Shown here: in pieces, positions 1 to 36,564 of the stretch
Layout: each line of letters begins with the position of its first letter
Position numbering within the stretch: the stretch's first letter is position 1
Source of the DNA: a virus
Lineage: Duplodnaviria > Caudoviricetes
Reading direction: 5' to 3' (one strand)
IMG/VR virus record: IMGVR_UViG_3300030330_002743
Span: 1 to 36,564 of that record
Length of the DNA: 36,564 nt
Notes under the pieces: model-generated
The model's input: the letters and a program-made list of their open reading frames with translations, nothing else
Databases searched by the model: none
What the model was told of the DNA's origin: nothing
Program-made: the position numbers and the translations under genes

Positions 1-13
1 GTCCGAAATTACC
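1..13. repeat. 13-bp terminal direct repeat (left copy), putative cos cohesive end
   Basis: GTCCGAAATTACC at 1-13 is identical to 36552-36564. On circularisation it is flanked by GTG/CAC dyad symmetry and lies upstream of terS. Confidence 0.85.
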
Positions 14-200
14 CACAGCCGATTCGCAATAAAGGACCCTGATTCTCAATTGCAATAAGGTGGGGTCTGGGTTGATAATGATTCTCATTCTCATCTCATA
101 GTGAGAATGATTCTCATTCTCATCGCACTATTGCAAATGATTCTCAATTGCAACGGCTGAGACCCCCTGCGGTATTGCTATTGCGTCGCATTCTCAATAA
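14..200. promoter_or_regulatory. array 1 of Fur-family-box-like sites
   Basis: GATAATGATTCTCATTCTC at 74-92 matches the classical Fur box GATAATGATAATCATTATC at 16/19. Perfect 7-1-7 palindrome TGAGAATGATTCTCA at 102-116, TGCAAATGATTCTCA at 132-146, and degenerate copies near 21-28, 41-56 and 182-196. Confidence 0.65.
33..39 (-). promoter_or_regulatory. cosQ-like packaging termination signal
   Basis: The minus strand reads GGGTCCT(TT), identical to lambda cosQ, 19 nt before the terminal repeat. The phage has a GpA-type terminase. Confidence 0.65.
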
Positions 201-209
201 CAAAGGCAC

Positions 210-233
210 AAAAAAAACCGCCTCAATGGCGGT
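210..233 (-). terminator. rho-independent terminator of the left-end operon
   Basis: Minus strand: ACCGCC-ATTGA-GGCGGT stem-loop followed by a T run. Confidence 0.8.
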
Positions 234-396
234 CGGTGATGCTGACGCGGGATGGTGGCGGCCACCAATCGGGAGGATTCTCCCTTAGTCGCCGTTCTGA
301 TTCCATGTAAGCGGCCACAACCTCACGAAACAGTTGCGCGGTTGCATCATCGGGTGCATTAATCCACGCGGGGCAGTCTGGCGTTGGTTCATGCAT
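223..396 (-). CDS. hypothetical protein (57 aa, MHEPTPDCPAWINAPDD...)
   Basis: Not in the ORF track; translated by hand. The ATG overlaps the end of the upstream gene, is preceded by GAGGT, and the stop lies in the terminator loop. Confidence 0.55.
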   Translation of the reverse strand: MHEPTPDCPAWINAPDDATAQLFREVVAAYMESERRLRENPPDWWPPPSRVSITDRH

Positions 397-1099
397 GGCT
401 TACCTCTTGTAGTAGTTGATCGGCTTTCTTCTTACGCGTGCCGTGGGCGGTGAAGGCCACGATGACACGCTTGCCACGTTTGTGGCACAGCATGCACTGT
501 GAGCAGTCAGTCTCGCGGCGTTGCGCGGGGCAGACCATCACGAGATTGCGGTCAGGGGTGCGCCAGGTTGAGCGGGTCTCAGTGCTGGGGACGGTGATGG
601 TGGCTGGCAATCCTGCGGCAATGGCAGCATCAGCGGCGACCACTGATTCGGTGCTGACGTTAATGGTTAGGCCACTACGAAATGCACGGCGCAGCAGTTC
701 GGCGTTCTCACCCTTTGCCAGATCGTGATGCGTGTATGTCCATGCCTGAAGCTTGCGCCGCTTGATCACGTCAAGTAGCGCCACGAGATAACGCCGCGAG
801 ATCTTACCGGCTGAATGGGGCAGATCCCCTACCTGGTTAATTCTCAGGGGTGAGAAGACGGGCAACGTTGCCAGATCAGCGAGATGATCGCGCCAGCTCT
901 TGCCGCGCTCACCGTTGCTGACCTTATCCCAGTGGAGGGCAATGGGGCCAAGCATCCCGTAGCAGAAGTGACGAGCGCCACACGTTGGCGGGCAGGAGTT
1001 GCGCGACGTTGTTGTAACGGGGATTGGTCCCGTCTTTTTATTGCCTGAGACGCGGGATAAGTGAAACCGCGCTGAGGAGAGAGAGAGGGTCACGGTCAA
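389..1099 (-). CDS. Cys-rich phage protein (DUF7227/gp88-like; putative Fe-S, radical-SAM-like)
   Basis: Motifs SGNKKTGPIPVTT, CPPTCxxxxxCY, RINQVGD, WTYTH and CPAQ...CxxCxLC. Start probably TTG 1099 (overlapping the upstream TGA) or GTG 1093; the ORF track extends it to 1129. Confidence 0.7.
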   Translation of the reverse strand: MTVTLSLSSARFHLSRVSGNKKTGPIPVTTTSRNSCPPTCGARHFCYGMLGPIALHWDKVSNGERGKSWRDHLADLATLPVFSPLRINQVGDLPHSAGKISRRYLVALLDVIKRRKLQAWTYTHHDLAKGENAELLRRAFRSGLTINVSTESVVAADAAIAAGLPATITVPSTETRSTWRTPDRNLVMVCPAQRRETDCSQCMLCHKRGKRVIVAFTAHGTRKKKADQLLQEVSHA

Positions 1100-1311
1100 G
1101 AGATTTGGGGGTGTGGGGTTGGCTGCCAATCAATGGGGACAGGGATGCCCTGCGGCAGCCCGTACAGGATCCTGTACAGGGTGCGGCGACGTGCCAAGAC
1201 TTCACGGCGGGAGTCTTCCGCCCATAGCTTGCGCAGCAGTCGCTGACACTTCAGGATCTCGCGGGAGATGGTCGCGATCTGCTCAGGGCTAAGTTTTGGG
1301 TCTGGCGTCAT
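1096..1311 (-). CDS. hypothetical protein (MTPDPKLSPEQ...)
   Basis: ATG at 1311 overlaps the upstream stop (ATGA); basic helical protein within the operon. Confidence 0.6.
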   Translation of the reverse strand: MTPDPKLSPEQIATISREILKCQRLLRKLWAEDSRREVLARRRTLYRILYGLPQGIPVPIDWQPTPHPQIS

Positions 1312-1499
1312 GACAGGGTCATCCTGACGCGGTGGCGGGTGATGCCAAGACGGGCAGCGATGCGGCGCTGAGAATGCCCGCAACGGGTCAGCATGCGGAC
1401 GCGGCGATCCTGCGACATGGTCAGCAGATCAACCACGGCAACAATTGCGAGAAAAAAGAAGGCCACCTTGAAGATGGCCGCGATGGAGATGGAGATCAT
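1308..1499 (-). CDS. membrane-anchored helix-turn-helix protein
   Basis: N-terminal hydrophobic segment followed by an HTH-like GHSQRRIAARLGITRHRVR. Confidence 0.7.
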   Translation of the reverse strand: MISISIAAIFKVAFFFLAIVAVVDLLTMSQDRRVRMLTRCGHSQRRIAARLGITRHRVRMTLS

Positions 1500-1602
1500 T
1501 TAGGAAGTTTGGGGAGAGAGGGAGAGGGACCTGTCCAGCGGATTGGACGGGGTGGGAGTTGCTCACCGGGGAGCACGGGACGGGGACGGCGGAAGATGTT
1601 TG

Positions 1603-1749
1603 TCACTTGCACACCTTGGAGAATGCGGGAGCACGGTCTGCGCAATCAAGGAAGGCATGCTGCGCGGCGACATCAGCACCACAGAGAAGGAGAAGGCCTG
1701 CAAACCAATAGAAGAGAAGCCTGAGGTCGCGGCGAGCTGAGGTGGACAT
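1603..1749 (-). CDS. small membrane/secreted hypothetical protein (MSTSARRDLRLLFYWFAGLLLL...)
   Basis: ATG preceded by a CT-rich leader; one hydrophobic helix; first gene after the predicted promoter. Confidence 0.55.
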   Translation of the reverse strand: MSTSARRDLRLLFYWFAGLLLLCGADVAAQHAFLDCADRAPAFSKVCK

Positions 1750-1807
1750 AAAGGAGGAGAGAGAGAGAGAGAGAGAGGCGCACACTGTGGTAGGTGCGCT
1801 TGATAAG

Positions 1808-1836
1808 ACGATAGGACGTGAGGACGAAAAAAGCGA
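1808..1836 (-). promoter_or_regulatory. putative promoter of the left-end operon
   Basis: TCGCTT-N17-TATCGT. The spacer TTTCGTCCTCACGTCC resembles the spacer of the promoter at 7525-7552. Confidence 0.4.
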
Positions 1837-1993
1837 CCCTTTGAGCCGCAACTGGGGACAGTGCCCCGATTGTCCATAGGTGTCGCGTTGGTGGCCTCTT
1901 TATTGGCGCGGGACGCTGACGCGCACCGATGGCAGCGGCGACCATACAGAGACGCGGGGCGACCGATCCCGCGATTGTCACACCGTGTGCTTA

Positions 1994-2145
1994 TTGAGAT
2001 TGACTCTCAATTGCAACAACACGCCCCACCGGCTTATTGCAAATAATTCTCAATTGCGACAAGACTGAGAATGATTCTCATTCTCACCGTTGTTGCGAGC
2101 GATTCTCAATGTCAGGCTTATTGCGAATGATTCTCAATTGCAATA
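1994..2145. promoter_or_regulatory. array 2 of Fur-family-box-like sites
   Basis: 15-mers start at 1995 (TGAGATTGACTCTCA), 2038 (TGCAAATAATTCTCA), 2066 (TGAGAATGATTCTCA), 2094 (TGCGAGCGATTCTCA) and 2122 (TGCGAATGATTCTCA). The last four are exactly 28 bp apart. Confidence 0.65.
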
Positions 2146-2152
2146 GGCATGT

Positions 2153-2186
2153 AGTACATCTGTACCATATGTAGTACGTTTGTACT
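2153..2186. promoter_or_regulatory. two tandem cyanobacterial-type LexA (SOS) boxes
   Basis: AGTACATCTGTACC (2153-2166) and AGTACGTTTGTACT (2173-2186) both fit the cyanobacterial LexA consensus RGTACNNNDGTWCB. Confidence 0.65.
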
Positions 2187-2189
2187 ACC

Positions 2190-2295
2190 TAAACCGACCA
2201 CTTTCTGGTTCCGATATAAACCGAACCCTTGCAAGAACTGAGGTCATTATAAACCGATTGCCCGCAAGAACTTAAACCGATTGCTTGCAAGAACT
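2190..2295. repeat. 23-bp direct repeats TAAACCGA-N6-GCAAGAACT
   Basis: Full copies at 2217-2239, 2250-2272 and 2273-2295; partial TAAACCGA at 2190-2197. Confidence 0.8.
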
Positions 2296-3047
2296 CAGGC
2301 AGTTGCAATTGCTTTTCGCAATGCCTGCCCGAATGCCTTGTTCCAGTTCTTCTGCGCGAAGGCTGCGCCGATAGGGATGTAGGGAAACTTCTGCGGCAGG
2401 TTGCTCTGCCTTGTGATCCAGAACAGCGCAGAATCAATTTCCTGGCGTGCCATCTCGTCTTCTAGGTAAATGCCTGGGAAGTAGCGATTGCGAGAGGAGT
2501 TGAATGCTGCAGTTGTCCGTGCCTTGTACTGACGTGCAGCTCTCACGCGTTTGGCTTGGCGGCGATAGGTAAAGGCACTGCTGTCGCGGAATGCCTGCAG
2601 GCTGTACAGGATTTCGGTGTACTGCGATGGCATCACATTTCCATACTGGTTCCGCTTTAAGTAATCCGACTGGGTGGGGATAGCGATTTCTCCAGGGGCC
2701 AAAATCCCTTTAATGCGCAATGCCTTTTGGAAGCGTGTCAGGTAAGGCTTGCCGCCTTGAATCTGCGGGAGCAGGTACTTGCTTGTGGGGTTGCCCTTTG
2801 TTGCAAACTCCTTGAGGCCAACCTCAACGTACAGATTGCTTTTTGAGCTGGCTTTGATGTACATGCCATTCAATGTGAACGGCACAGGATTACGAAACCG
2901 CTGCTTCATCTCAGAGCGGTAGTTATCGCGAATGTCCTTTGCGAGGTTGTTTAGTGCAAGGGAACTGGCGAACGGGATCTGCACCTGCTTGATCGTGTCC
3001 ACCTTCTTCAGCATGTGGTTCACGTCAAAGGTGACAGGCTGCGCCAT
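2295..3047 (-). CDS. phage morphogenesis protein (tail completion/Neck1, HK97 gp10-like)
   Basis: QIPFASSLALNNLAK...F-x-x-P-x-PFTLN motif and basic C-terminus, typical of this family near cos in lambda-like phages. Confidence 0.6.
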   Translation of the reverse strand: MAQPVTFDVNHMLKKVDTIKQVQIPFASSLALNNLAKDIRDNYRSEMKQRFRNPVPFTLNGMYIKASSKSNLYVEVGLKEFATKGNPTSKYLLPQIQGGKPYLTRFQKALRIKGILAPGEIAIPTQSDYLKRNQYGNVMPSQYTEILYSLQAFRDSSAFTYRRQAKRVRAARQYKARTTAAFNSSRNRYFPGIYLEDEMARQEIDSALFWITRQSNLPQKFPYIPIGAAFAQKNWNKAFGQALRKAIATA

Positions 3048-6333: not shown

Positions 6334-6823
6334 AGATGAGCTTCTGGATGGTGACGAGATTGGTTGGACAGGCATAGCGGTTTTGCTTGTAACCGATGTA
6401 CCGCCGATCTTCCGTCTCAATGACCTCCCACGATGAGAAGGTCTCTTTGACGTTGATCACAGCAACGTATGTCCTGCTTTTGTTGACAATGAAGTAGTAC
6501 GAAGGCGGCTGGGCCTTGTACTTCTCAAACGCATGAACAGCGCATACAAAAAACGTTGAGAACCGATGCGGCCTGACATCAGTGAAATCACTGGTGTTGG
6601 TCGTCTTGACCTCAACGATCAGACGCTTGCCGTTGTGTTCAAAGAAAAGATCACCCTTGTCTTGATTGTCTCCAATTTGACTCAGGCTGGAAGCAACTTT
6701 GAACGGCGGGATATACACCCCATAACCTTGACGGTGCAGATGGTGTGCAACCAGAAATACATCCTTTGTTGACTGACGAAGATGGTTTTTAAACCTTTCG
6801 TGATTGATTTGGCCTACATCCAT
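6326..6823 (-). CDS. putative PD-(D/E)XK-fold nuclease
   Basis: DKGDL...IVEVK catalytic-type motif. Confidence 0.6.
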   Translation of the reverse strand: MDVGQINHERFKNHLRQSTKDVFLVAHHLHRQGYGVYIPPFKVASSLSQIGDNQDKGDLFFEHNGKRLIVEVKTTNTSDFTDVRPHRFSTFFVCAVHAFEKYKAQPPSYYFIVNKSRTYVAVINVKETFSSWEVIETEDRRYIGYKQNRYACPTNLVTIQKLIYE

Positions 6824-7443
6824 CAGAACAGCTCGTTGATGATGTTGTTTTCCTGCGCCTCCTGCTCCAGCCGCTCAGCAGTGAAGTCACGGTATGCAGG
6901 GTGCTTTGTCTCAGGCTCAGCGGCCTTCTTGGCAGGCTGCATGTTCTCGTAGTTAGACAGCTCAATGCCTTTCCACTTGCCCGACTCAGCCCTGCCTAGC
7001 TGCTCCTCTACAACATCCTTTCCGTACTTGTCCAAGAACTTCAGCAGGTTGTTCATCAAGCGGTTCCACGCAGTGTCGCTTTTGCTCCCCTGCTTGACCC
7101 GCCAGTACGCGTCAATCGCACCTTTAAAAGGCTTCAGAGGTTCCGGATACCCCTTCTTAGGGGTTTCCCTCTGCACTCCCTTCCCGACATCTTCCCCACG
7201 AACAAAAGAGGGAGAAGAAGTTTTTTCAACAGCCGTTTGAGTGATTTTTACGCACTCATCACGCTGAATGACATGTACTTCTTTGTTTCCCGCATGCGCA
7301 GGGCACGGCGCTAACTTAGCCACCCTGTCAAGCTCTGCAGCTATCAAGTCAAGACAAAAACTAGAAAGCATCTTGTGGACTGGCTTTTCAGCCATCAACT
7401 TGTCGTGAAACTCATCTGGGACAACGAGATTGATGCGCTTCAT
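6823..7443 (-). CDS. putative replication/DNA-binding protein with N-terminal ribbon-helix-helix
   Basis: MKRINLVVPDEFHDKL (RHH-like) and a C-terminal domain with YWRVKQGSKSDTAW...WKGI; first gene of the leftward early operon. Confidence 0.55.
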   Translation of the reverse strand: MKRINLVVPDEFHDKLMAEKPVHKMLSSFCLDLIAAELDRVAKLAPCPAHAGNKEVHVIQRDECVKITQTAVEKTSSPSFVRGEDVGKGVQRETPKKGYPEPLKPFKGAIDAYWRVKQGSKSDTAWNRLMNNLLKFLDKYGKDVVEEQLGRAESGKWKGIELSNYENMQPAKKAAEPETKHPAYRDFTAERLEQEAQENNIINELF

Positions 7444-7488
7444 ACCGTGGAACATGGACGACGTGATGCTGCCACCGTGTAACACGGT
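7444..7488. promoter_or_regulatory. paired palindromic operator-like sites
   Basis: Perfect ACCGTGT-A-ACACGGT (7474-7488) and variant ACCGTGGAACATGGA (7444-7458) in the divergent intergenic region. Confidence 0.5.
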
Positions 7489-7524
7489 TCGCAACCTCAA
7501 CCAGAAGAAAATGTGGCAAGGGGG

Positions 7525-9124: not shown

Positions 9125-9266
9125 TATCGCTAACAAGGTGCGTGAGGTGGCTCGTCGCTATCCCGAACTGCACCCGTACACCATCTCTTTGAAGATGGAG
9201 GTTTTGTTTGGCATCAAGATTGGGGCCAAGCGAATCAAGCAGATTCTTAATGGAGAGGAGTCATGA
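9111..9266 (+). CDS. hypothetical protein (MKSTDIANKVREV...)
   Basis: ATG at 9111 with GGAG upstream; stop overlaps the next ATG (ATGA). Confidence 0.65.
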   Translation: MKSTDIANKVREVARRYPELHPYTISLKMEVLFGIKIGAKRIKQILNGEES

Positions 9267-9715
9267 GCTACGGCTACGATTCAGAAAATGCCTTCAGCGA
9301 GATGTCGGCCAGCACTCAGTTCACATTTACTGAGGGGCATATCCGTCTTCTCATTTGGATGTGTGATCAACAAGCAGAGGTCCTTGAGAACTGCTTTGAC
9401 GAAGCACTTAAAAACAATGAAGACCCGTCTGATGTCGTCCTGAACTGCAGGGAGGGCGTCTACGAGTTGAAATGTTGGGCATTGAGGTTGCTAGAGCAGC
9501 TTGAATACCCAGAAGATGATGAAATGGAGGACGAGGACGAAGACCTTACCGAAGATGAACTCGCACTACAGGAGTTTAGGCAAGATCTCATACTCAAATC
9601 GCAGGTACATAGAGCTGCTGAAGGACGAGAAGAGCGGCCAGGTCCACTACAGAAGCTGCGGGTATGGGTACTGTCTGTACTCGTACGACTTCTTGCAGGC
9701 GATGGCAAAGCTTGA
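9263..9715 (+). CDS. acidic hypothetical protein
   Basis: Strong RBS GAGGAG; 150 aa with an acidic tract. Confidence 0.7.
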   Translation: MSYGYDSENAFSEMSASTQFTFTEGHIRLLIWMCDQQAEVLENCFDEALKNNEDPSDVVLNCREGVYELKCWALRLLEQLEYPEDDEMEDEDEDLTEDELALQEFRQDLILKSQVHRAAEGREERPGPLQKLRVWVLSVLVRLLAGDGKA

Positions 9716-13097: not shown

Positions 13098-13445
13098 TCA
13101 GAATGCGTACTTGCTTCCGAGCTTGATGCCATAACCAGCATCAACATCCTTGAACTTGGCGTAGCTGGCCTCGGTGTACAGGCTCATCTTTTCGCTGACA
13201 TTGGCGGACACGCCGGTCTTGCCAGAGAAGCCCCACTCACTGTCAACGGTGTCGTTTGACAGAGCAGGACCTGCTTGGATGTACCAAGGGCCTTCTTCCC
13301 AGCCAACGTGCAGTTCCAGTGAAGATCCGGCGAACTTTGAGCCGGAAAATCCAGCGTTGTACTCCGGATTCAAGTACACGCTTTGTGCCATTGCGCTGGT
13401 GCCGGTCAGTGCCAAAGCACCAACCAAGGAAAGTTGTTTAAGCAT
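13098..13445 (-). CDS. small outer-membrane beta-barrel-like protein
   Basis: Signal peptide, amphipathic beta strands and C-terminal G-x-K-Y-x-F beta-signal. Confidence 0.75.
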   Translation of the reverse strand: MLKQLSLVGALALTGTSAMAQSVYLNPEYNAGFSGSKFAGSSLELHVGWEEGPWYIQAGPALSNDTVDSEWGFSGKTGVSANVSEKMSLYTEASYAKFKDVDAGYGIKLGSKYAF

Positions 13446-34049: not shown

Positions 34050-35944
34050 CAGTTAGTCACGAACGACGACGAGGGCCGACGAGACATGCGCCTTCGTGTC
34101 GGCTGATAAGGCGATTCTACTCTTTTTTGTTCTTGAGGCTCGCTTTTTGGTTCTTGCGCTTTTGCAAACTGCTCAAAAATCGTGGAACGATTGAATCGCA
34201 TGTATAGATAGTTGAGAGCGCAGTAGCTGTAACAAAAACAGTCAAGAGCTTCATTGCGATCACCTGGCTTCTTCTTCCATTCACGAATAGCAAAGCCCTT
34301 GACATATCGCACCACCTGACGCTCACTTGTCAGTTGCTTGAAGTACTCAGGCGAAGCGGCAGCATGAAAATGAATGTATCCAGCCCCCTCTTCGTTCGTT
34401 TTCAATCTTGCGAACAGGGTTGATTTGATTGTGTCTACGCCTGCTGGAAAGACCTGTGCAGAGTTTTTCAGCACCTGACCTTTGTAGTTAATGTCCACCT
34501 TGCTTGGCTTGCCAATAGGCGGCTTGTTGCGCTGCGACTGACCCTTGAGCGCAAAAACACCACGCTTGGCACGCTCCCTGCAGTACGCATAGACCTCACT
34601 GGTGAAGTGACCACCAGAGTCAATTCCTGTAGCACTGACCTTTAGTTCAGTCCCGTCCTCTTTCTTGTACTTCCTGAAAATCACGTCATCTACTTGGTCC
34701 CATAGTTTCTTACCGGCAGGATCACCAAATATCTCAAAGTGATTGAGGAGCCAGCATTCCTCACCTTCTCCCCACGCATACAGCCCAACAGCAACTCTAT
34801 TGTCCTGCACGTCAACGCCACAAGTGACGATGCTTGCCTTTGCTGGGACCTGATCTGCTGGATAAAACTCTGCACGATCACGCAAGCCTTCTGCGCCCAT
34901 TTTTGCGCCGGTTTCTTCCTCCCATGTCTCACCAAGGACGGTATTTGTCCAAGTTTTTAACAAGGGCGGATCAGACTTAGCCCGCAGAAACTCCGTGACA
35001 ATTTCTTCCCAACTCTTCCAACCAAGCGGTGAATAAAGTGAGGACAGGTGAAAGCCAACGGTGCGCGGATCTTCCGCCGTGGCCGTAGCCCGCCATTCCC
35101 CACGACGGAGCATTTCACTCTTGTGATGCTCGGGAATGTGCGCTCCACATGAATTACACGCATACGCAGCAGTACGCGGATCACCGTCACGCCAGCGAAT
35201 GTTCTTCCACTCCAGCCATTGCATATGACCACAGTGCGGACAAGGAACGAAATACCGCATTTGATTGCTCGCTAGGTATTCCGTCTCAATCCGACTCATA
35301 TCTTTGACGGTCGGTGTAGAAGTAAGGATGATCTTCCTTCGCGAGAAGGTTGATGCTCTTCTCTCAGCTAGAGCACATGGATCACCTTCACCATCCACAT
35401 CAGCGGGAAACGCATCTACCTCATCCAGCAACACCCAACGACACGGCGCACTCCGTAGACCAGTTGCTGAATTTGCACCTGTCAACAGTAAGATCCCGCC
35501 GTCAAAGCTTTTTGAAAACATGGTGTTCCCTGAGTCACGACTGCGTGCAGGGGCCACCTTCTCCGACAACACAGGAGTCTCATGAATAAGAGAATCCAAA
35601 CGCTGCTTAGACAGCCTTTTCGCCATCTCAATCGTTGGCTGGACAAACAAAGCAGGACCAGGCGCATGGGCAATCATGTATCCGACGACGTTGTTTATGC
35701 ACTCCGTCTTGCCCAACTGAGCACCAGCCATGAAAACTACTTTCTGCACCGAGCTTGTGGAAGACATGCAATCCATGATTTCCCTGAGATACGGAGTGCG
35801 ATCCGTTCTCCACGGCCCTGGTTCCGCTGATGCCTTGTTTGACAGCATCCGGTACTGATCAGACCATTCGCTGACAGTCAGCTTTTCATCAGGCTTCAAC
35901 CCACTTAGAAATGCCTGCCGATAAATTGCAGCTCCGTCACGCAT
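34046..35944 (-). CDS. terL: terminase large subunit, GpA family
   Basis: TPYLREIM, AQLGKTE (Walker A), LLDEVD (Walker B), STPT, CPHC, GVDVQ, IDSGG and NEALDC. Confidence 0.96.
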   Translation of the reverse strand: MRDGAAIYRQAFLSGLKPDEKLTVSEWSDQYRMLSNKASAEPGPWRTDRTPYLREIMDCMSSTSSVQKVVFMAGAQLGKTECINNVVGYMIAHAPGPALFVQPTIEMAKRLSKQRLDSLIHETPVLSEKVAPARSRDSGNTMFSKSFDGGILLLTGANSATGLRSAPCRWVLLDEVDAFPADVDGEGDPCALAERRASTFSRRKIILTSTPTVKDMSRIETEYLASNQMRYFVPCPHCGHMQWLEWKNIRWRDGDPRTAAYACNSCGAHIPEHHKSEMLRRGEWRATATAEDPRTVGFHLSSLYSPLGWKSWEEIVTEFLRAKSDPPLLKTWTNTVLGETWEEETGAKMGAEGLRDRAEFYPADQVPAKASIVTCGVDVQDNRVAVGLYAWGEGEECWLLNHFEIFGDPAGKKLWDQVDDVIFRKYKKEDGTELKVSATGIDSGGHFTSEVYAYCRERAKRGVFALKGQSQRNKPPIGKPSKVDINYKGQVLKNSAQVFPAGVDTIKSTLFARLKTNEEGAGYIHFHAAASPEYFKQLTSERQVVRYVKGFAIREWKKKPGDRNEALDCFCYSYCALNYLYMRFNRSTIFEQFAKAQEPKSEPQEQKRVESPYQPTRRRMSRRPSSSFVTNW

Positions 35945-36410
35945 TAGTCAGTCTCTCCAATGCTTTTCGCAGTTCTTCCTGCAAAGTTTGATGGATTACA
36001 ACTGAATCTGTTTCGGCTGCGAATTGGTTGGCAACCCGGTCGGGGATGCTATCTAGCGCGTCACGAACAGAGCGGGCAAGGGTAAAAGCAGCACTCTTGA
36101 CCTTGTCTGCCTCGCACAGCAGCTCCTCCTTCTCCTCCAAATCCAGCCGAGCCATCTCAGCGCGAAAGAACTCAGTCTTAGCGCGAGACTCGTTGAAGCT
36201 TGGGATCTCTAGATCCTTGGAGGCGATTCTTGTGGTACTTTGGGGGATTTCGCCGTTCCACGCGGCTATCGCTGCGTCCTCGTCAAAAAATACAAATCGG
36301 CCTTCTGTGCGATAAGTGCCTTCTAAGCGGCCTGTTTTCTTGATTTGACTAACACGTCCTCGCGTAACACCTAGCTTCTCAGCTAACTGTGCGATTGTGA
36401 CTTCTGGCAC
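35937..36410 (-). CDS. terS: terminase small subunit (Nu1-like, N-terminal HTH)
   Basis: AQLAEKLGVTRGRVSQ HTH plus coiled coil; immediately upstream of terL. Confidence 0.85.
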   Translation of the reverse strand: MPEVTIAQLAEKLGVTRGRVSQIKKTGRLEGTYRTEGRFVFFDEDAAIAAWNGEIPQSTTRIASKDLEIPSFNESRAKTEFFRAEMARLDLEEKEELLCEADKVKSAAFTLARSVRDALDSIPDRVANQFAAETDSVVIHQTLQEELRKALERLTNA

Positions 36411-36490
36411 TCGTTGATAGGCCCTAATTACCGCAAAGTTATCTTATTTCCTCTTATTTCGCTTTTTGTGCATATATAAGTGGCATGTCC

Positions 36491-36505
36491 CATGTGACTC
36501 ACATG
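36491..36505. promoter_or_regulatory. perfect palindrome between cos and terS
   Basis: CATGTGA-C-TCACATG. Confidence 0.4.
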
Positions 36506-36551
36506 CGACGCTGGTTACGACCTAGGCGCCTGACGCTAGCGAAATAACGTG

Positions 36552-36564
36552 GTCCGAAATTACC
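36552..36564. repeat. 13-bp terminal direct repeat (right copy), putative cos
   Basis: Identical to bases 1-13. Confidence 0.85.

What the first reader, a model, noticed from the sequence alone, without database searches (positions are those of the whole stretch)
14..2295. Left-end cassette: small operon bracketed by arrays of host-regulator-like sites (candidate metal/SOS sensing or decoy system)
Seen: a 5-gene minus-strand operon (223-1749) with its own terminator, flanked on both sides by about 10 same-orientation Fur-box-like sites. Two LexA boxes and a third repeat family abut these, giving three motif arrays back to back in 1994-2295. Known: in lambda-type packaging, the end opposite terS is packaged last and ejected first. 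Inference: this first-entering DNA either reads host iron/zinc and DNA-damage status to gate infection, or titrates host Fur and LexA to derepress metal uptake and SOS genes. No integrase or CI is visible, so a classical prophage switch does not explain it. Array 1 lies downstream of the terminator, which fits a decoy or DNA-looping role better than a simple operator.
Basis: partly seen in the sequence, partly recalled or inferred. Interest (0 to 1): 0.88.

Follow-up and report, generated by a model that had tools for sequence, protein, structure and literature searches.

The report
Host repressor docks at phage end
A marine virus that likely infects picocyanobacteria carries, at the genome end where packaging likely stops and injection likely starts, rows of DNA words matching its host's metal (Fur-family) and DNA-damage (LexA) repressor sites, placed away from the predicted promoter, so host repressors likely coat this end as a barrier rather than switch a gene.

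Summary
Observation confirmed. The window is a whole lambda-like siphovirus cut at cos: a 13-nt terminal repeat, with a lambda-type cosQ word at 33-39. Eight full Fur-type 7-1-7 sites and three half-sites lie only at 21-198 and 1993-2138. Two cyanobacterial LexA boxes and a third repeat follow. They bracket six coupled ORFs, including a radical-SAM-like DUF7227. Relatives share the layout with variable counts: upstream LexA in 25 of 31, Fur in 19 of 31, cos-side sites in 10 of 26. The Fur reading is well supported: the perfect palindrome lies beside metal-homeostasis genes in 37 of 80 metagenome loci. Lambda, 434, 21, N15 and HK225 each have a Fur box 5-6 nt before cosQ, and Fur binding there is published for the Qin prophage. 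Fur versus Zur is unresolved. The sites sit about 245 nt upstream of the first start codon or behind a terminator, so an ordinary operator is unlikely. The likely TerS sites are a different word on the other side of cos. Best reading: a positional coat or roadblock of host repressors (0.4); decoy and sensing remain open; nothing is tested in a cyanobacterium. This scan found the same layout before on other DNA.

The parts
1..13 (.). 13-nt terminal repeat, identical to 36552-36564; likely cosN cohesive end
   Evidence: 13-nt match, not 14. Relatives' contigs end or begin with the same word. Contigs of runs X1 and X2 end exactly at base 1 (X1 may be the source of this record).
33..39 (-). cosQ-like word GGGTCCT, 19 nt from the terminal repeat
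   Evidence: Same 7-mer is annotated as cosQ in phages 434 and 21; it lies 23 nt from the end in lambda; conserved in the clade.
21..198 (+). Array 1 (cos side): full Fur-type 15-mers at 73-87, 102-116, 132-146; half-sites at 21-30, 41-50 (abuts cosQ) and 189-198
208..234 (-). Intrinsic-terminator-like hairpin (216-234) and T run closing the cassette
223..396 (-). 57-aa ORF of no known family; start overlaps the DUF7227 stop
   Evidence: only a marginal hit in 108 related loci (E 0.05)
389..1093 (-). DUF7227 protein, about 234 aa (GTG start inferred); predicted radical-SAM-like fold, Cys motif C-x3-C-x5-C plus a C-terminal Cys cluster; likely an Fe-S protein
   Evidence: Pfam E 3.7e-66; 7 invariant Cys in 23 sequences; model pLDDT 94; top 8 VIA-align rows are radical SAM enzymes at Z 5.8-6.8; Foldseek gave no hit at E<=0.001
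1096..1311 (-). 71-aa ORF, ATGA-coupled to the upstream gene
   Evidence: Homologues in L142 and L169 (48%) and L139 (28%)
1308..1499 (-). 63-aa protein with a hydrophobic N-terminus and a C-terminal helix-turn-helix
   Evidence: Weak HTH hits below cut-off; homologue in 14 of 31 clade loci
1496..1606 (-).
   Evidence: weak hit in L152 (E 0.001)
1603..1749 (-). 48-aa first ORF of the cassette
   Evidence: no homologue found
1800..1849 (-). Inferred weak promoter (about 1800-1828) with a terminator-like hairpin (1833-1849) just upstream of it
   Evidence: Hairpin. Promoter inferred by eye from the -35/-10-like words 45-75 nt before the HTH gene in relatives; one search did not score it.
1993..2138 (+). 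Array 2: five Fur-type 15-mers at 1995, 2038, 2066, 2094, 2122 (spacing 43, 28, 28, 28)
2153..2186 (.). Two cyanobacterial LexA-type boxes (2153-2166, 2173-2186)
   Evidence: consensus and Synechococcus recA boxes in PMC3091678
2190..2299 (+). Third repeat (R3): four asymmetric direct repeats with core TAAACCGA, overlapping the stop of the tail-completion gene; likely a phage-protein site
   Evidence: 2 or more copies in 13 of 14 evaluable loci with at least 45% identity in the adjacent gene, and present also in relatives lacking both host boxes
2295..3047 (-). gpZ-like tail-completion gene; upstream border of the inserted cassette
   Evidence: phrog_1924 E 9e-50; homologues annotated tail completion or minor tail Z; followed directly by cosQ in S-CBS1 and MD8, and by a one-base variant in S-CBS3
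36485..36551 (-). cosB-like zone before terS with degenerate TGAGAC(G/T)CA words; candidate TerS sites, with no Fur or LexA box
35937..36410 (-). Terminase small subunit, Nu1-like; fixes the packaging direction
   Evidence: phrog_57 E 1e-29

Best explanation
The arrays match host Fur-family and LexA repressor sites and lie at the cosQ end of a lambda-like phage, outside the predicted promoter, so host repressors likely dock on them and likely act by position, as a coat or roadblock that would fence off the early cassette and the cos end. Shown: the sites, their clustering, the cosQ word and terminal repeat, and the conserved order (tail-completion gene, R3, LexA, Fur, cassette, terminator, Fur or LexA, cosQ, cosN, terS). 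Established for lambdoid prophages of E. coli: Fur binds the single box beside cosQ. Inferred: a picocyanobacterial host, binding by its Fur, Zur or PerR and LexA, and entry of this end first. Conjectured: bound repressors back up the two terminators and block read-through into the cassette and across cos into terS, and may shield the entering end. The block would lift when replicating genomes outnumber free repressor, or when iron drops or RecA cleaves LexA. R3 is probably a separate phage-protein site.
For: (1) Site identity. The clade consensus from 133 distinct sites extends by one hexamer into GAGAAT-GAGAAT-C-ATTCTC, the 6-bp overlap typical of Fur clusters (PMC2189734). The window site at 2034-2056 closely resembles Synechocystis Fur boxes TU689 and TU1071 (PMC8634477 Table S5). 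The perfect palindrome lies beside metal-homeostasis genes in 37 of 80 metagenome loci. The LexA pattern is from the literature. (2) Precedent at the same position. A 7-1-7 box lies 5-6 nt before cosQ in 5 of 5 coliphages examined. The Qin (nohA) site is gel-shifted by Fur (PMC2189734). Iron-dependent ChIP peaks lie at nohA and nohB with no Fur-dependent change in expression, though expression is low (PMC4676285 Table S2). Coordinates map onto the cosQ-adjacent box. (3) Position rather than promoter. In 21 representative loci, Fur sites per kb are 2.95 upstream of the cassette, 4.4 on the cos side, 0.03 in the cassette and 0.10 elsewhere; LexA 2.35, 0.68, 0 and 0.02. The last site is 244-294 nt before the HTH gene start in 9 of 10 loci, outside the usual -100 to +50 Fur window. 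In isolate S-CRES3, LexA and Fur boxes sit between two convergent terminators. (4) Interchangeable binder. The cos side carries Fur sites in 8 and LexA sites in 4 of 26 loci. (5) Unrelated phages. Tandem copies of the motif lie within about 4 kb of a terminase or cos-type HNH gene in 14 of 35 clusters, spanning several terminase classes.
Against: No binding or expression datum exists for any cyanophage, and the host is inferred. The arrays are dispensable in kin: 16 of 26 complete relatives have no full site on the cos side, 4 of 31 have neither box upstream, and S-CBS1, S-CBS3 and S-SRP01 have none genome-wide; MD8 has none at its end. Spacing is not phased (26-68 nt), which suits simple titration as well as a barrier. 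In S-CRES3 the boxes are 18 kb from terL and its physical end is unknown. In 21 of 35 motif clusters no terminase was detected in the fetched flank. Enrichment near contig ends (20 of 68 versus 8.6 expected) could come from repeats breaking assemblies. The Fur pattern was derived from these sequences, so densities and the 0.81 versus 0.54 site-versus-spacer identity are partly circular. The 37 of 80 count has no matched control. A variant in run X5 moves site 132 away from consensus at base 137.
Confidence: 0.4

Rival explanations
1. Decoy sink: once genomes replicate, hundreds of Fur-family and LexA sites titrate the host repressors and derepress metal uptake and recA/ssb. The ends are simply where non-coding space is available.
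For: Copy number varies even inside 90%-identity clusters (LexA 3 to 7 and Fur 0 to 3 in L166/167/168/178). Spacing is free and LexA boxes pack at 16-17 nt. The phage has recombination genes but no polymerase or helicase was recognised. The cassette encodes a likely Fe-S protein. The nohA site was first found by in vivo selection for Fur sites (cited in PMC2189734).
Against: A sink needs no fixed place, yet coliphages keep one box 5-6 nt from cosQ and sites are nearly absent elsewhere. Eight sites per genome is small beside the cellular Fur pool (thousands in E. coli, recalled). The link between 3 or more Fur sites and an Fe-S gene is not significant (9 of 10 versus 9 of 16, Fisher p 0.10, loci not independent).
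Confidence: 0.2
2. Sensing operator: Fur and LexA bound upstream repress or activate the cassette promoter at a distance, so iron, zinc or DNA damage decides whether early genes fire.
For: Array 2 and the LexA pair lie upstream of the cassette in a conserved order. In one cluster the Fur array travels with the HTH+DUF7227 cassette (L178 versus L166-168). LexA-controlled phage promoters are known (recalled).
Against: Sites are about 170-220 nt beyond the predicted -35, with a terminator-like hairpin in between in the window. Array 1 is downstream of the terminator. No integrase, recombinase or CI was found. Seven of 12 relatives with no upstream Fur site still carry DUF7227.
Confidence: 0.17
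3. Phage-protein sites: the Fur-like words are amplified relatives of the TerS recognition word, or targets of the cassette's HTH protein, and only resemble Fur boxes.
For: The cosB side carries TGAGAC(G/T)CA words that share TGAGA with the arrays, and in L145 and L164 this word occupies the slot beside cosQ. The window site at 183-198 is a hybrid of the two.
Against: No full Fur 15-mer or LexA box occurs on the cosB side in any of 30 stretches (about 9 are false cos calls). The same arrays flank unrelated terminase classes. HTH presence does not track the arrays: 5 loci have Fur sites without HTH and 3 have HTH without sites (n 26, p 0.11). It does not explain the LexA matches.
Confidence: 0.13
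4. Neutral repeat expansion: one functional box near cos was duplicated by recombination in a gene-free end region, and the extra copies do nothing.
For: Rapid gain and loss among close relatives, and other tandem repeats fill the same zones in L095, L139, L143 and L158/L020.
Against: Spacers differ in length and sequence while the cores persist, unlike fresh tandem duplication. Two unrelated host motifs are both enriched.
Confidence: 0.1

Closest known systems
Fur box beside cosQ of lambdoid phages and prophages (nohA in Qin, nohB/nohD in DLP12; PMC2189734 passages, PMC4676285 Table S2)
   Same: 7-1-7 Fur-type palindrome next to the same GGGTCCT word at the packaging-termination end, with no shown effect on the downstream gene.
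   Different: One box there. Here 3 full sites plus half-sites at cos, a second array of 5 two kilobases in, LexA boxes and an inserted early cassette. In the passages I saw, the E. coli sites are listed as sites upstream of nohA/nohB, not linked to cos.
Lambda cos (cosQ-cosN-cosB) with host IHF as an architectural factor (cosQ from annotation; the rest recalled)
   Same: cosQ word, terminal repeat, gpA/Nu1-type terminase, repeated words before terS.
   Different: cosQ is 19 nt from the repeat instead of 23. The host-factor sites are repressor boxes on the cosQ side, variable in number and optional.
Cyanobacterial Fur, Zur and LexA operators (PMC8634477, PMC9337993, PMC3091678)
   Same: Sequence of the individual sites.
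   Different: Host operators are mostly single or paired and overlap promoters. These are arrays away from the predicted promoter or behind a terminator.
LexA-controlled phage promoters and antirepressors (coliphage 186 tum, N15, Bacillus GIL01; recalled)
   Same: Host LexA boxes in phage DNA.
   Different: No lysogeny module was found here, the boxes are about 400 nt from the first cassette gene, and they come with Fur arrays.
Synechococcus siphoviruses S-CBS1 and S-CBS3
   Same: Lambda-like head module (terL 45%), gpZ-like gene at the right end, cosQ word.
   Different: They have no cassette between gpZ and cos and no Fur or LexA boxes.

Membership tests
Lambda-type cos end | gpA/Nu1-type terminase | tested here: met
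   phrog_15 and phrog_57
Lambda-type cos end | cosQ word GGGTCCT a short fixed distance before cosN | tested here: met
   33-39, 19 nt from the repeat; conserved in the clade
Lambda-type cos end | Single-stranded cohesive overhang at a unique end | tested here: inconclusive
   13-nt terminal repeat and shared contig ends; contigs cannot show an overhang
Fur-family binding site | 7-1-7 inverted repeat with 6-bp overlapping extension | tested here: met
Fur-family binding site | Same word marks metal-homeostasis promoters in cells | tested here: met
   37 of 80 loci; the two named examples were Pelagibacter-cluster and Paraglaciecola proteins, none shown to be picocyanobacterial
Fur-family binding site | Metal-dependent binding by the host protein | not testable with these tools
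   Published only for the E. coli sites beside cosQ
Fur (iron) rather than Zur (zinc) site | Fits the FurA matrix and not the Zur consensus | tested here: inconclusive
   Three sites (73, 102, 2066) miss the RegPrecise Zur consensus at 1 of 16 fixed positions; the other five full sites miss at 4-6 and look like Synechocystis Fur boxes
Cyanobacterial LexA box | AGTACWNWTGTACT consensus | tested here: met
   Both sites within 2 mismatches; 1 other such hit in the remaining 34 kb
Classical repressor operator | Site overlaps or lies within about 100 nt of the promoter | tested here: inconclusive
   Sites are 244 nt or more from the start codon, but the promoter is only predicted; no start site is mapped
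SOS-inducible prophage switch | Integrase or resolvase and a cleavable repressor | tested here: not met
   PF00589, PF00239 and PF00717 absent from the 98%-complete record; an Arc/CopG-like protein at 6823-7500 is not excluded as a repressor
TerS recognition sites (cosB R sites) | Fixed set of repeats between cosN and terS | tested here: not met
   The arrays are on the cosQ side and variable; the cosB side has a different word
Radical SAM superfamily (DUF7227) | Partial TIM barrel with an N-terminal three-Cys cluster motif | tested here: inconclusive
   Top 8 VIA rows are radical SAM enzymes but Z is under 7, and the Cys spacing is x3/x5, not the canonical x3/x2 (recalled)

The most novel reading that the evidence does not exclude
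Unrelated phages place arrays of host-repressor sites (Fur/Zur, LexA, perhaps RpaB) at their packaging and entry ends and use the bound host proteins as a structural part: a coat on the entering DNA and a transcription barrier that lifts by itself as genome copies titrate the repressors, giving a protein-free timer for late genes that also reads iron and DNA damage. Lambda's lone Fur box beside cosQ would be the minimal version.
Probability: 0.25. Interest if true: 0.88.

Novelty: new variant of a known kind. Interest (0 to 1): 0.68.

Why it matters
If host repressors do load on phage ends, a large class of unexplained non-coding repeats at phage termini gets one testable explanation. Host iron and SOS state would then be tied to infection by picocyanobacterial viruses, in waters where iron often limits growth. 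The idea can be tested at once in lambda, which has a Fur box of proven binding 6 nt from cosQ with no role that I could find in print, and in the cultured cyanophage S-CRES3.

Tried and rejected
Host genome test: no picocyanobacterial genome could be reached. The host Fur box therefore rests on Synechocystis data and on mixed metagenome loci. Expression: no RNA holder listed; this is no evidence either way. A single-protein search with the gpZ-like gene found nothing; an alignment found 71 loci. blastn of 1985-2300 against cultured phages gave 16 short, weak hits (E 0.3-4); two were followed up (S-CRES3, P-RSP2). P-SSP7 carries DUF7227 as gene 1 but has no array at its left end. HTH63 as the binder was rejected for lack of co-occurrence. 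Fe-S gene linkage is not significant. Helical phasing between Fur sites was not seen. RpaB (HLR1) sites: 3 in 5.9 kb on the cos side versus 4 in 131 kb of background, none in the window; NtcA (pattern recalled): 1; a hint only. DUF7227 has no PDB relative by sequence or by Foldseek. Literature: 10 searches. Cyanophage+Fur box, cyanophage+LexA+binding site (25), nohA+Fur+prophage (36), cosQ+Fur (37, 0 papers), Fur+lambda+terminase+iron+cos site (56, 0 papers), Fur box/phage/genome end/Synechococcus (60) and phage/decoy/Fur/titrate (120) listed no title or abstract describing such arrays; listings only. Vassinova and Kozyrev 2000 and Seo 2014 are not held, and the first may discuss lambda cos. 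The cos call for L097 was misplaced; it was counted as having no cos-side site.
Full report
What the window is. The window is a whole IMG/VR virus record, 98% complete. It has a lambda-like head and tail module on the minus strand, from terS (35937-36410) and gpA-type terL onward. The nearest cyanophage isolates by terL are S-CBS1 and S-CBS3 at 45%; several proteobacterial phages score 46-50%. The host is inferred to be a picocyanobacterium: all 334 phage records matching the ORF at 13098-13445 are cyanophages or uncultured, the best DUF7227 hits are cyanopodoviruses, and the LexA boxes are of the cyanobacterial type. The two full holders among sequencing runs are marine metagenomes, one possibly the source.

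The end is a cos end. Bases 1-13 equal 36552-36564. Relatives' contigs start or stop on the same word, and contigs from X1 and X2 end at base 1. On the minus strand GGGTCCT lies at 33-39, 19 nt before the repeat. This is the word annotated as cosQ in phages 434 and 21 and found 23 nt from lambda's right end. The finding therefore lies on the packaging-termination side. That this end enters first is recalled from lambda and was not tested.

The observation. Eight full Fur-type 15-mers and three half-sites occur at 21-198 and 1993-2138. The 15-mer pattern has no hit in the other 34 kb; 200 shuffles gave mean 0.10 and max 2. Two LexA-type boxes (2153, 2173) and four copies of a third repeat (2190-2299) follow directly. 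Between the arrays lie six ORFs with overlapping or abutting starts and stops, closed by a terminator-like hairpin at 216-234. The main gene is DUF7227. Its model (pLDDT 94, from 23 of 30 sequences) matches radical SAM enzymes in the top 8 VIA-align rows, at modest Z of 5.8-6.8, while Foldseek found nothing significant. No integrase, resolvase, S24 peptidase or Fur gene was found.

Relatives. A profile of the adjacent gpZ-like gene gave 71 loci. In 31 of them (20 clusters at 90% identity) two or more R3 copies follow the stop codon; I took these as the clade. Upstream of the cassette, 25 of 31 have a LexA box, 19 of 31 a Fur-type site (10 have three or more), and 4 have neither. Of 26 that reach cos, 8 have a Fur-type site there, 4 a LexA box, and 16 neither, though many keep a half-site beside cosQ. 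Counts differ inside single clusters. In 21 representatives (window included) the sites concentrate in the two border zones and are nearly absent from the cassette and from 131 kb upstream. S-CBS1 and S-CBS3 have no cassette and no boxes, and MD8 has none at its end. The cassette is thus a variable insert between the gpZ-like gene and cosQ.

Are the sites Fur-family boxes? The clade consensus extends by one hexamer, the 6-bp overlap reported for Fur clusters (PMC2189734, passages). The site at 2034-2056 closely resembles Synechocystis boxes in Table S5 of PMC8634477 (supplement parts 1 and 3 seen). A scan of metagenome contigs for the perfect 19-bp palindrome returned 119 loci. Of the first 80, 74 had a testable flanking ORF, and 37 lie beside FUR, FeoB, FTR1, iron-type or ZnuA binding proteins, TonB plugs, HemS, ferritin and similar families by my reading of Pfam names (no matched control). 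This identifies a Fur-family word in general, not in the host. Three window sites also fit the cyanobacterial Zur consensus at 15 of 16 fixed positions (PMC9337993, passage), so iron versus zinc is open.

Precedent in coliphages. Lambda, 434, 21, N15 and HK225 (5 of 5 examined) have a 7-1-7 box 5-6 nt before cosQ; N15's has 3 mismatches. In E. coli K-12 the Qin and DLP12 cos regions carry the same box, and Qin's last 70 nt before cosN read the same as lambda's (by eye). Fur gel-shifts the nohA oligo (PMC2189734); its coordinate maps to the centre of the box with the 1976-nt offset derived. ChIP-seq shows iron-dependent peaks at nohA and nohB, flagged as unchanged in expression and poorly expressed (PMC4676285, Table S2 read whole). 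The DLP12 offset of 777 is recalled.

Unrelated phages. A tandem-motif scan of viral contigs gave 68 loci in 35 clusters. Fourteen clusters have a terminase or cos-type HNH gene in the fetched flank, of T7-like, HK97-like, lambda-like and other classes; the queries came from these loci after annotation. Nine clusters have a GP88 or DUF7227 gene nearby. Twenty of 68 arrays lie within 700 nt of a contig end against 8.6 expected, which assembly breaks could inflate. The isolate Synechococcus phage S-CRES3 has two LexA boxes, two Fur-type sites and a further LexA-like site between two convergent terminators, far from its terL. P-RSP2 has two Fur-type sites in a non-coding gap.

How it likely works. 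A classical operator fits poorly. The last Fur site ends 244-294 nt before the HTH gene start in 9 of 10 relatives, where -35/-10-like words sit 45-75 nt before the start, and Synechocystis Fur boxes mostly fall within -100 to +50 of the start site. Array 1 is behind the terminator. TerS fits poorly too: the cosB side has a different word and no Fur or LexA box, and the arrays are optional. The HTH gene does not track them. What remains is binding by host repressors at places with no promoter to block. The fixed position beside cosQ in coliphages, the recurrence near unrelated terminases, and the swap of LexA for Fur on the cos side favour a positional role: a roadblock that backs up the terminators (Fur as a roadblock is described at isiA) or a coat on the entering end (0.4). 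Free spacing and changing copy number keep titration alive (0.2). Sensing at a distance (0.17), a phage binder (0.13) and neutral expansion (0.1) are not excluded. The identity of the sites as host boxes I put at about 0.8. Every functional step is inferred. R3 persists where both host boxes are absent and is probably a phage-protein site.

Novelty. Single Fur sites upstream of nohA and nohB are published, and LexA sites in phages are known (recalled). Seven targeted searches listed nothing on arrays of host-repressor boxes at phage ends; the library lacks most subscription journals, and Vassinova and Kozyrev 2000 was seen only as a citation. Earlier agents of this scan reported the same layout in a related cyanophage, Fur boxes at phi92, T5 and lambda ends, and MetJ arrays at other phage ends. 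These are unchecked notes. I had found the lambda link before reading them; the MetJ notes moved me toward a role in which the identity of the repressor matters less than its position.

Noticed in passing
window 1753-1777: Run of AG dinucleotides just before the first cassette start codon (a CT run on the coding strand); similar purine runs precede ORFs at about 1075-1087 and 1510-1527. Reads are cut there.
   Followed up: no
window 6823-7500 (-): Protein with an Arc/CopG-like N-terminus at the divergent junction 7500/7577; candidate regulator or replication initiator. No polymerase or helicase was recognised in this genome.
   Followed up: partly
window 1308-1499 (-): Small protein joining a hydrophobic N-terminal segment to an HTH, kept in 14 of 31 clade loci; could tether DNA to the membrane.
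   Followed up: partly
L011 4476-5543, L139, L145: GP88-family protein takes the place of DUF7227 in some cassettes; the two related Cys-motif families recur beside the arrays in unrelated phages.
   Followed up: partly
L140, L160, L161 cos side; L185 cos side: RpaB HLR1-like direct repeats and one NtcA-like palindrome beside the arrays; suggests further host regulators.
   Followed up: partly
L095 100-330 and 2450-2640; L020 4300-4560; L139, L141, L143: Other tandem repeat families fill the same two border zones where Fur sites are few or absent.
   Followed up: no
L388 17630-18425 (S-CRES3, OQ587941.1 29629-30424): Unannotated 800-bp gap between convergent gene blocks with LexA and Fur-type boxes; possibly the physical genome end; a cultured test system.
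   Followed up: partly
L011 4240-4389, L013 294-437: Some relatives have a small ORF on the opposite strand just inside array 1, with a promoter-like stretch next to the boxes; here Fur or LexA could act as true operators.
   Followed up: no
window 9318: One further LexA-like site (2 mismatches) inside the ORF at 9263-9715.
   Followed up: no
window 13098-13445 (-): Cyanophage outer-membrane-protein-like barrel (PF24653), used here as a host marker.
   Followed up: yes
NC_023693.1 70-93 (hit H136): Lambda's Fur box also matches the terminal repeat of coliphage phi92.
   Followed up: no
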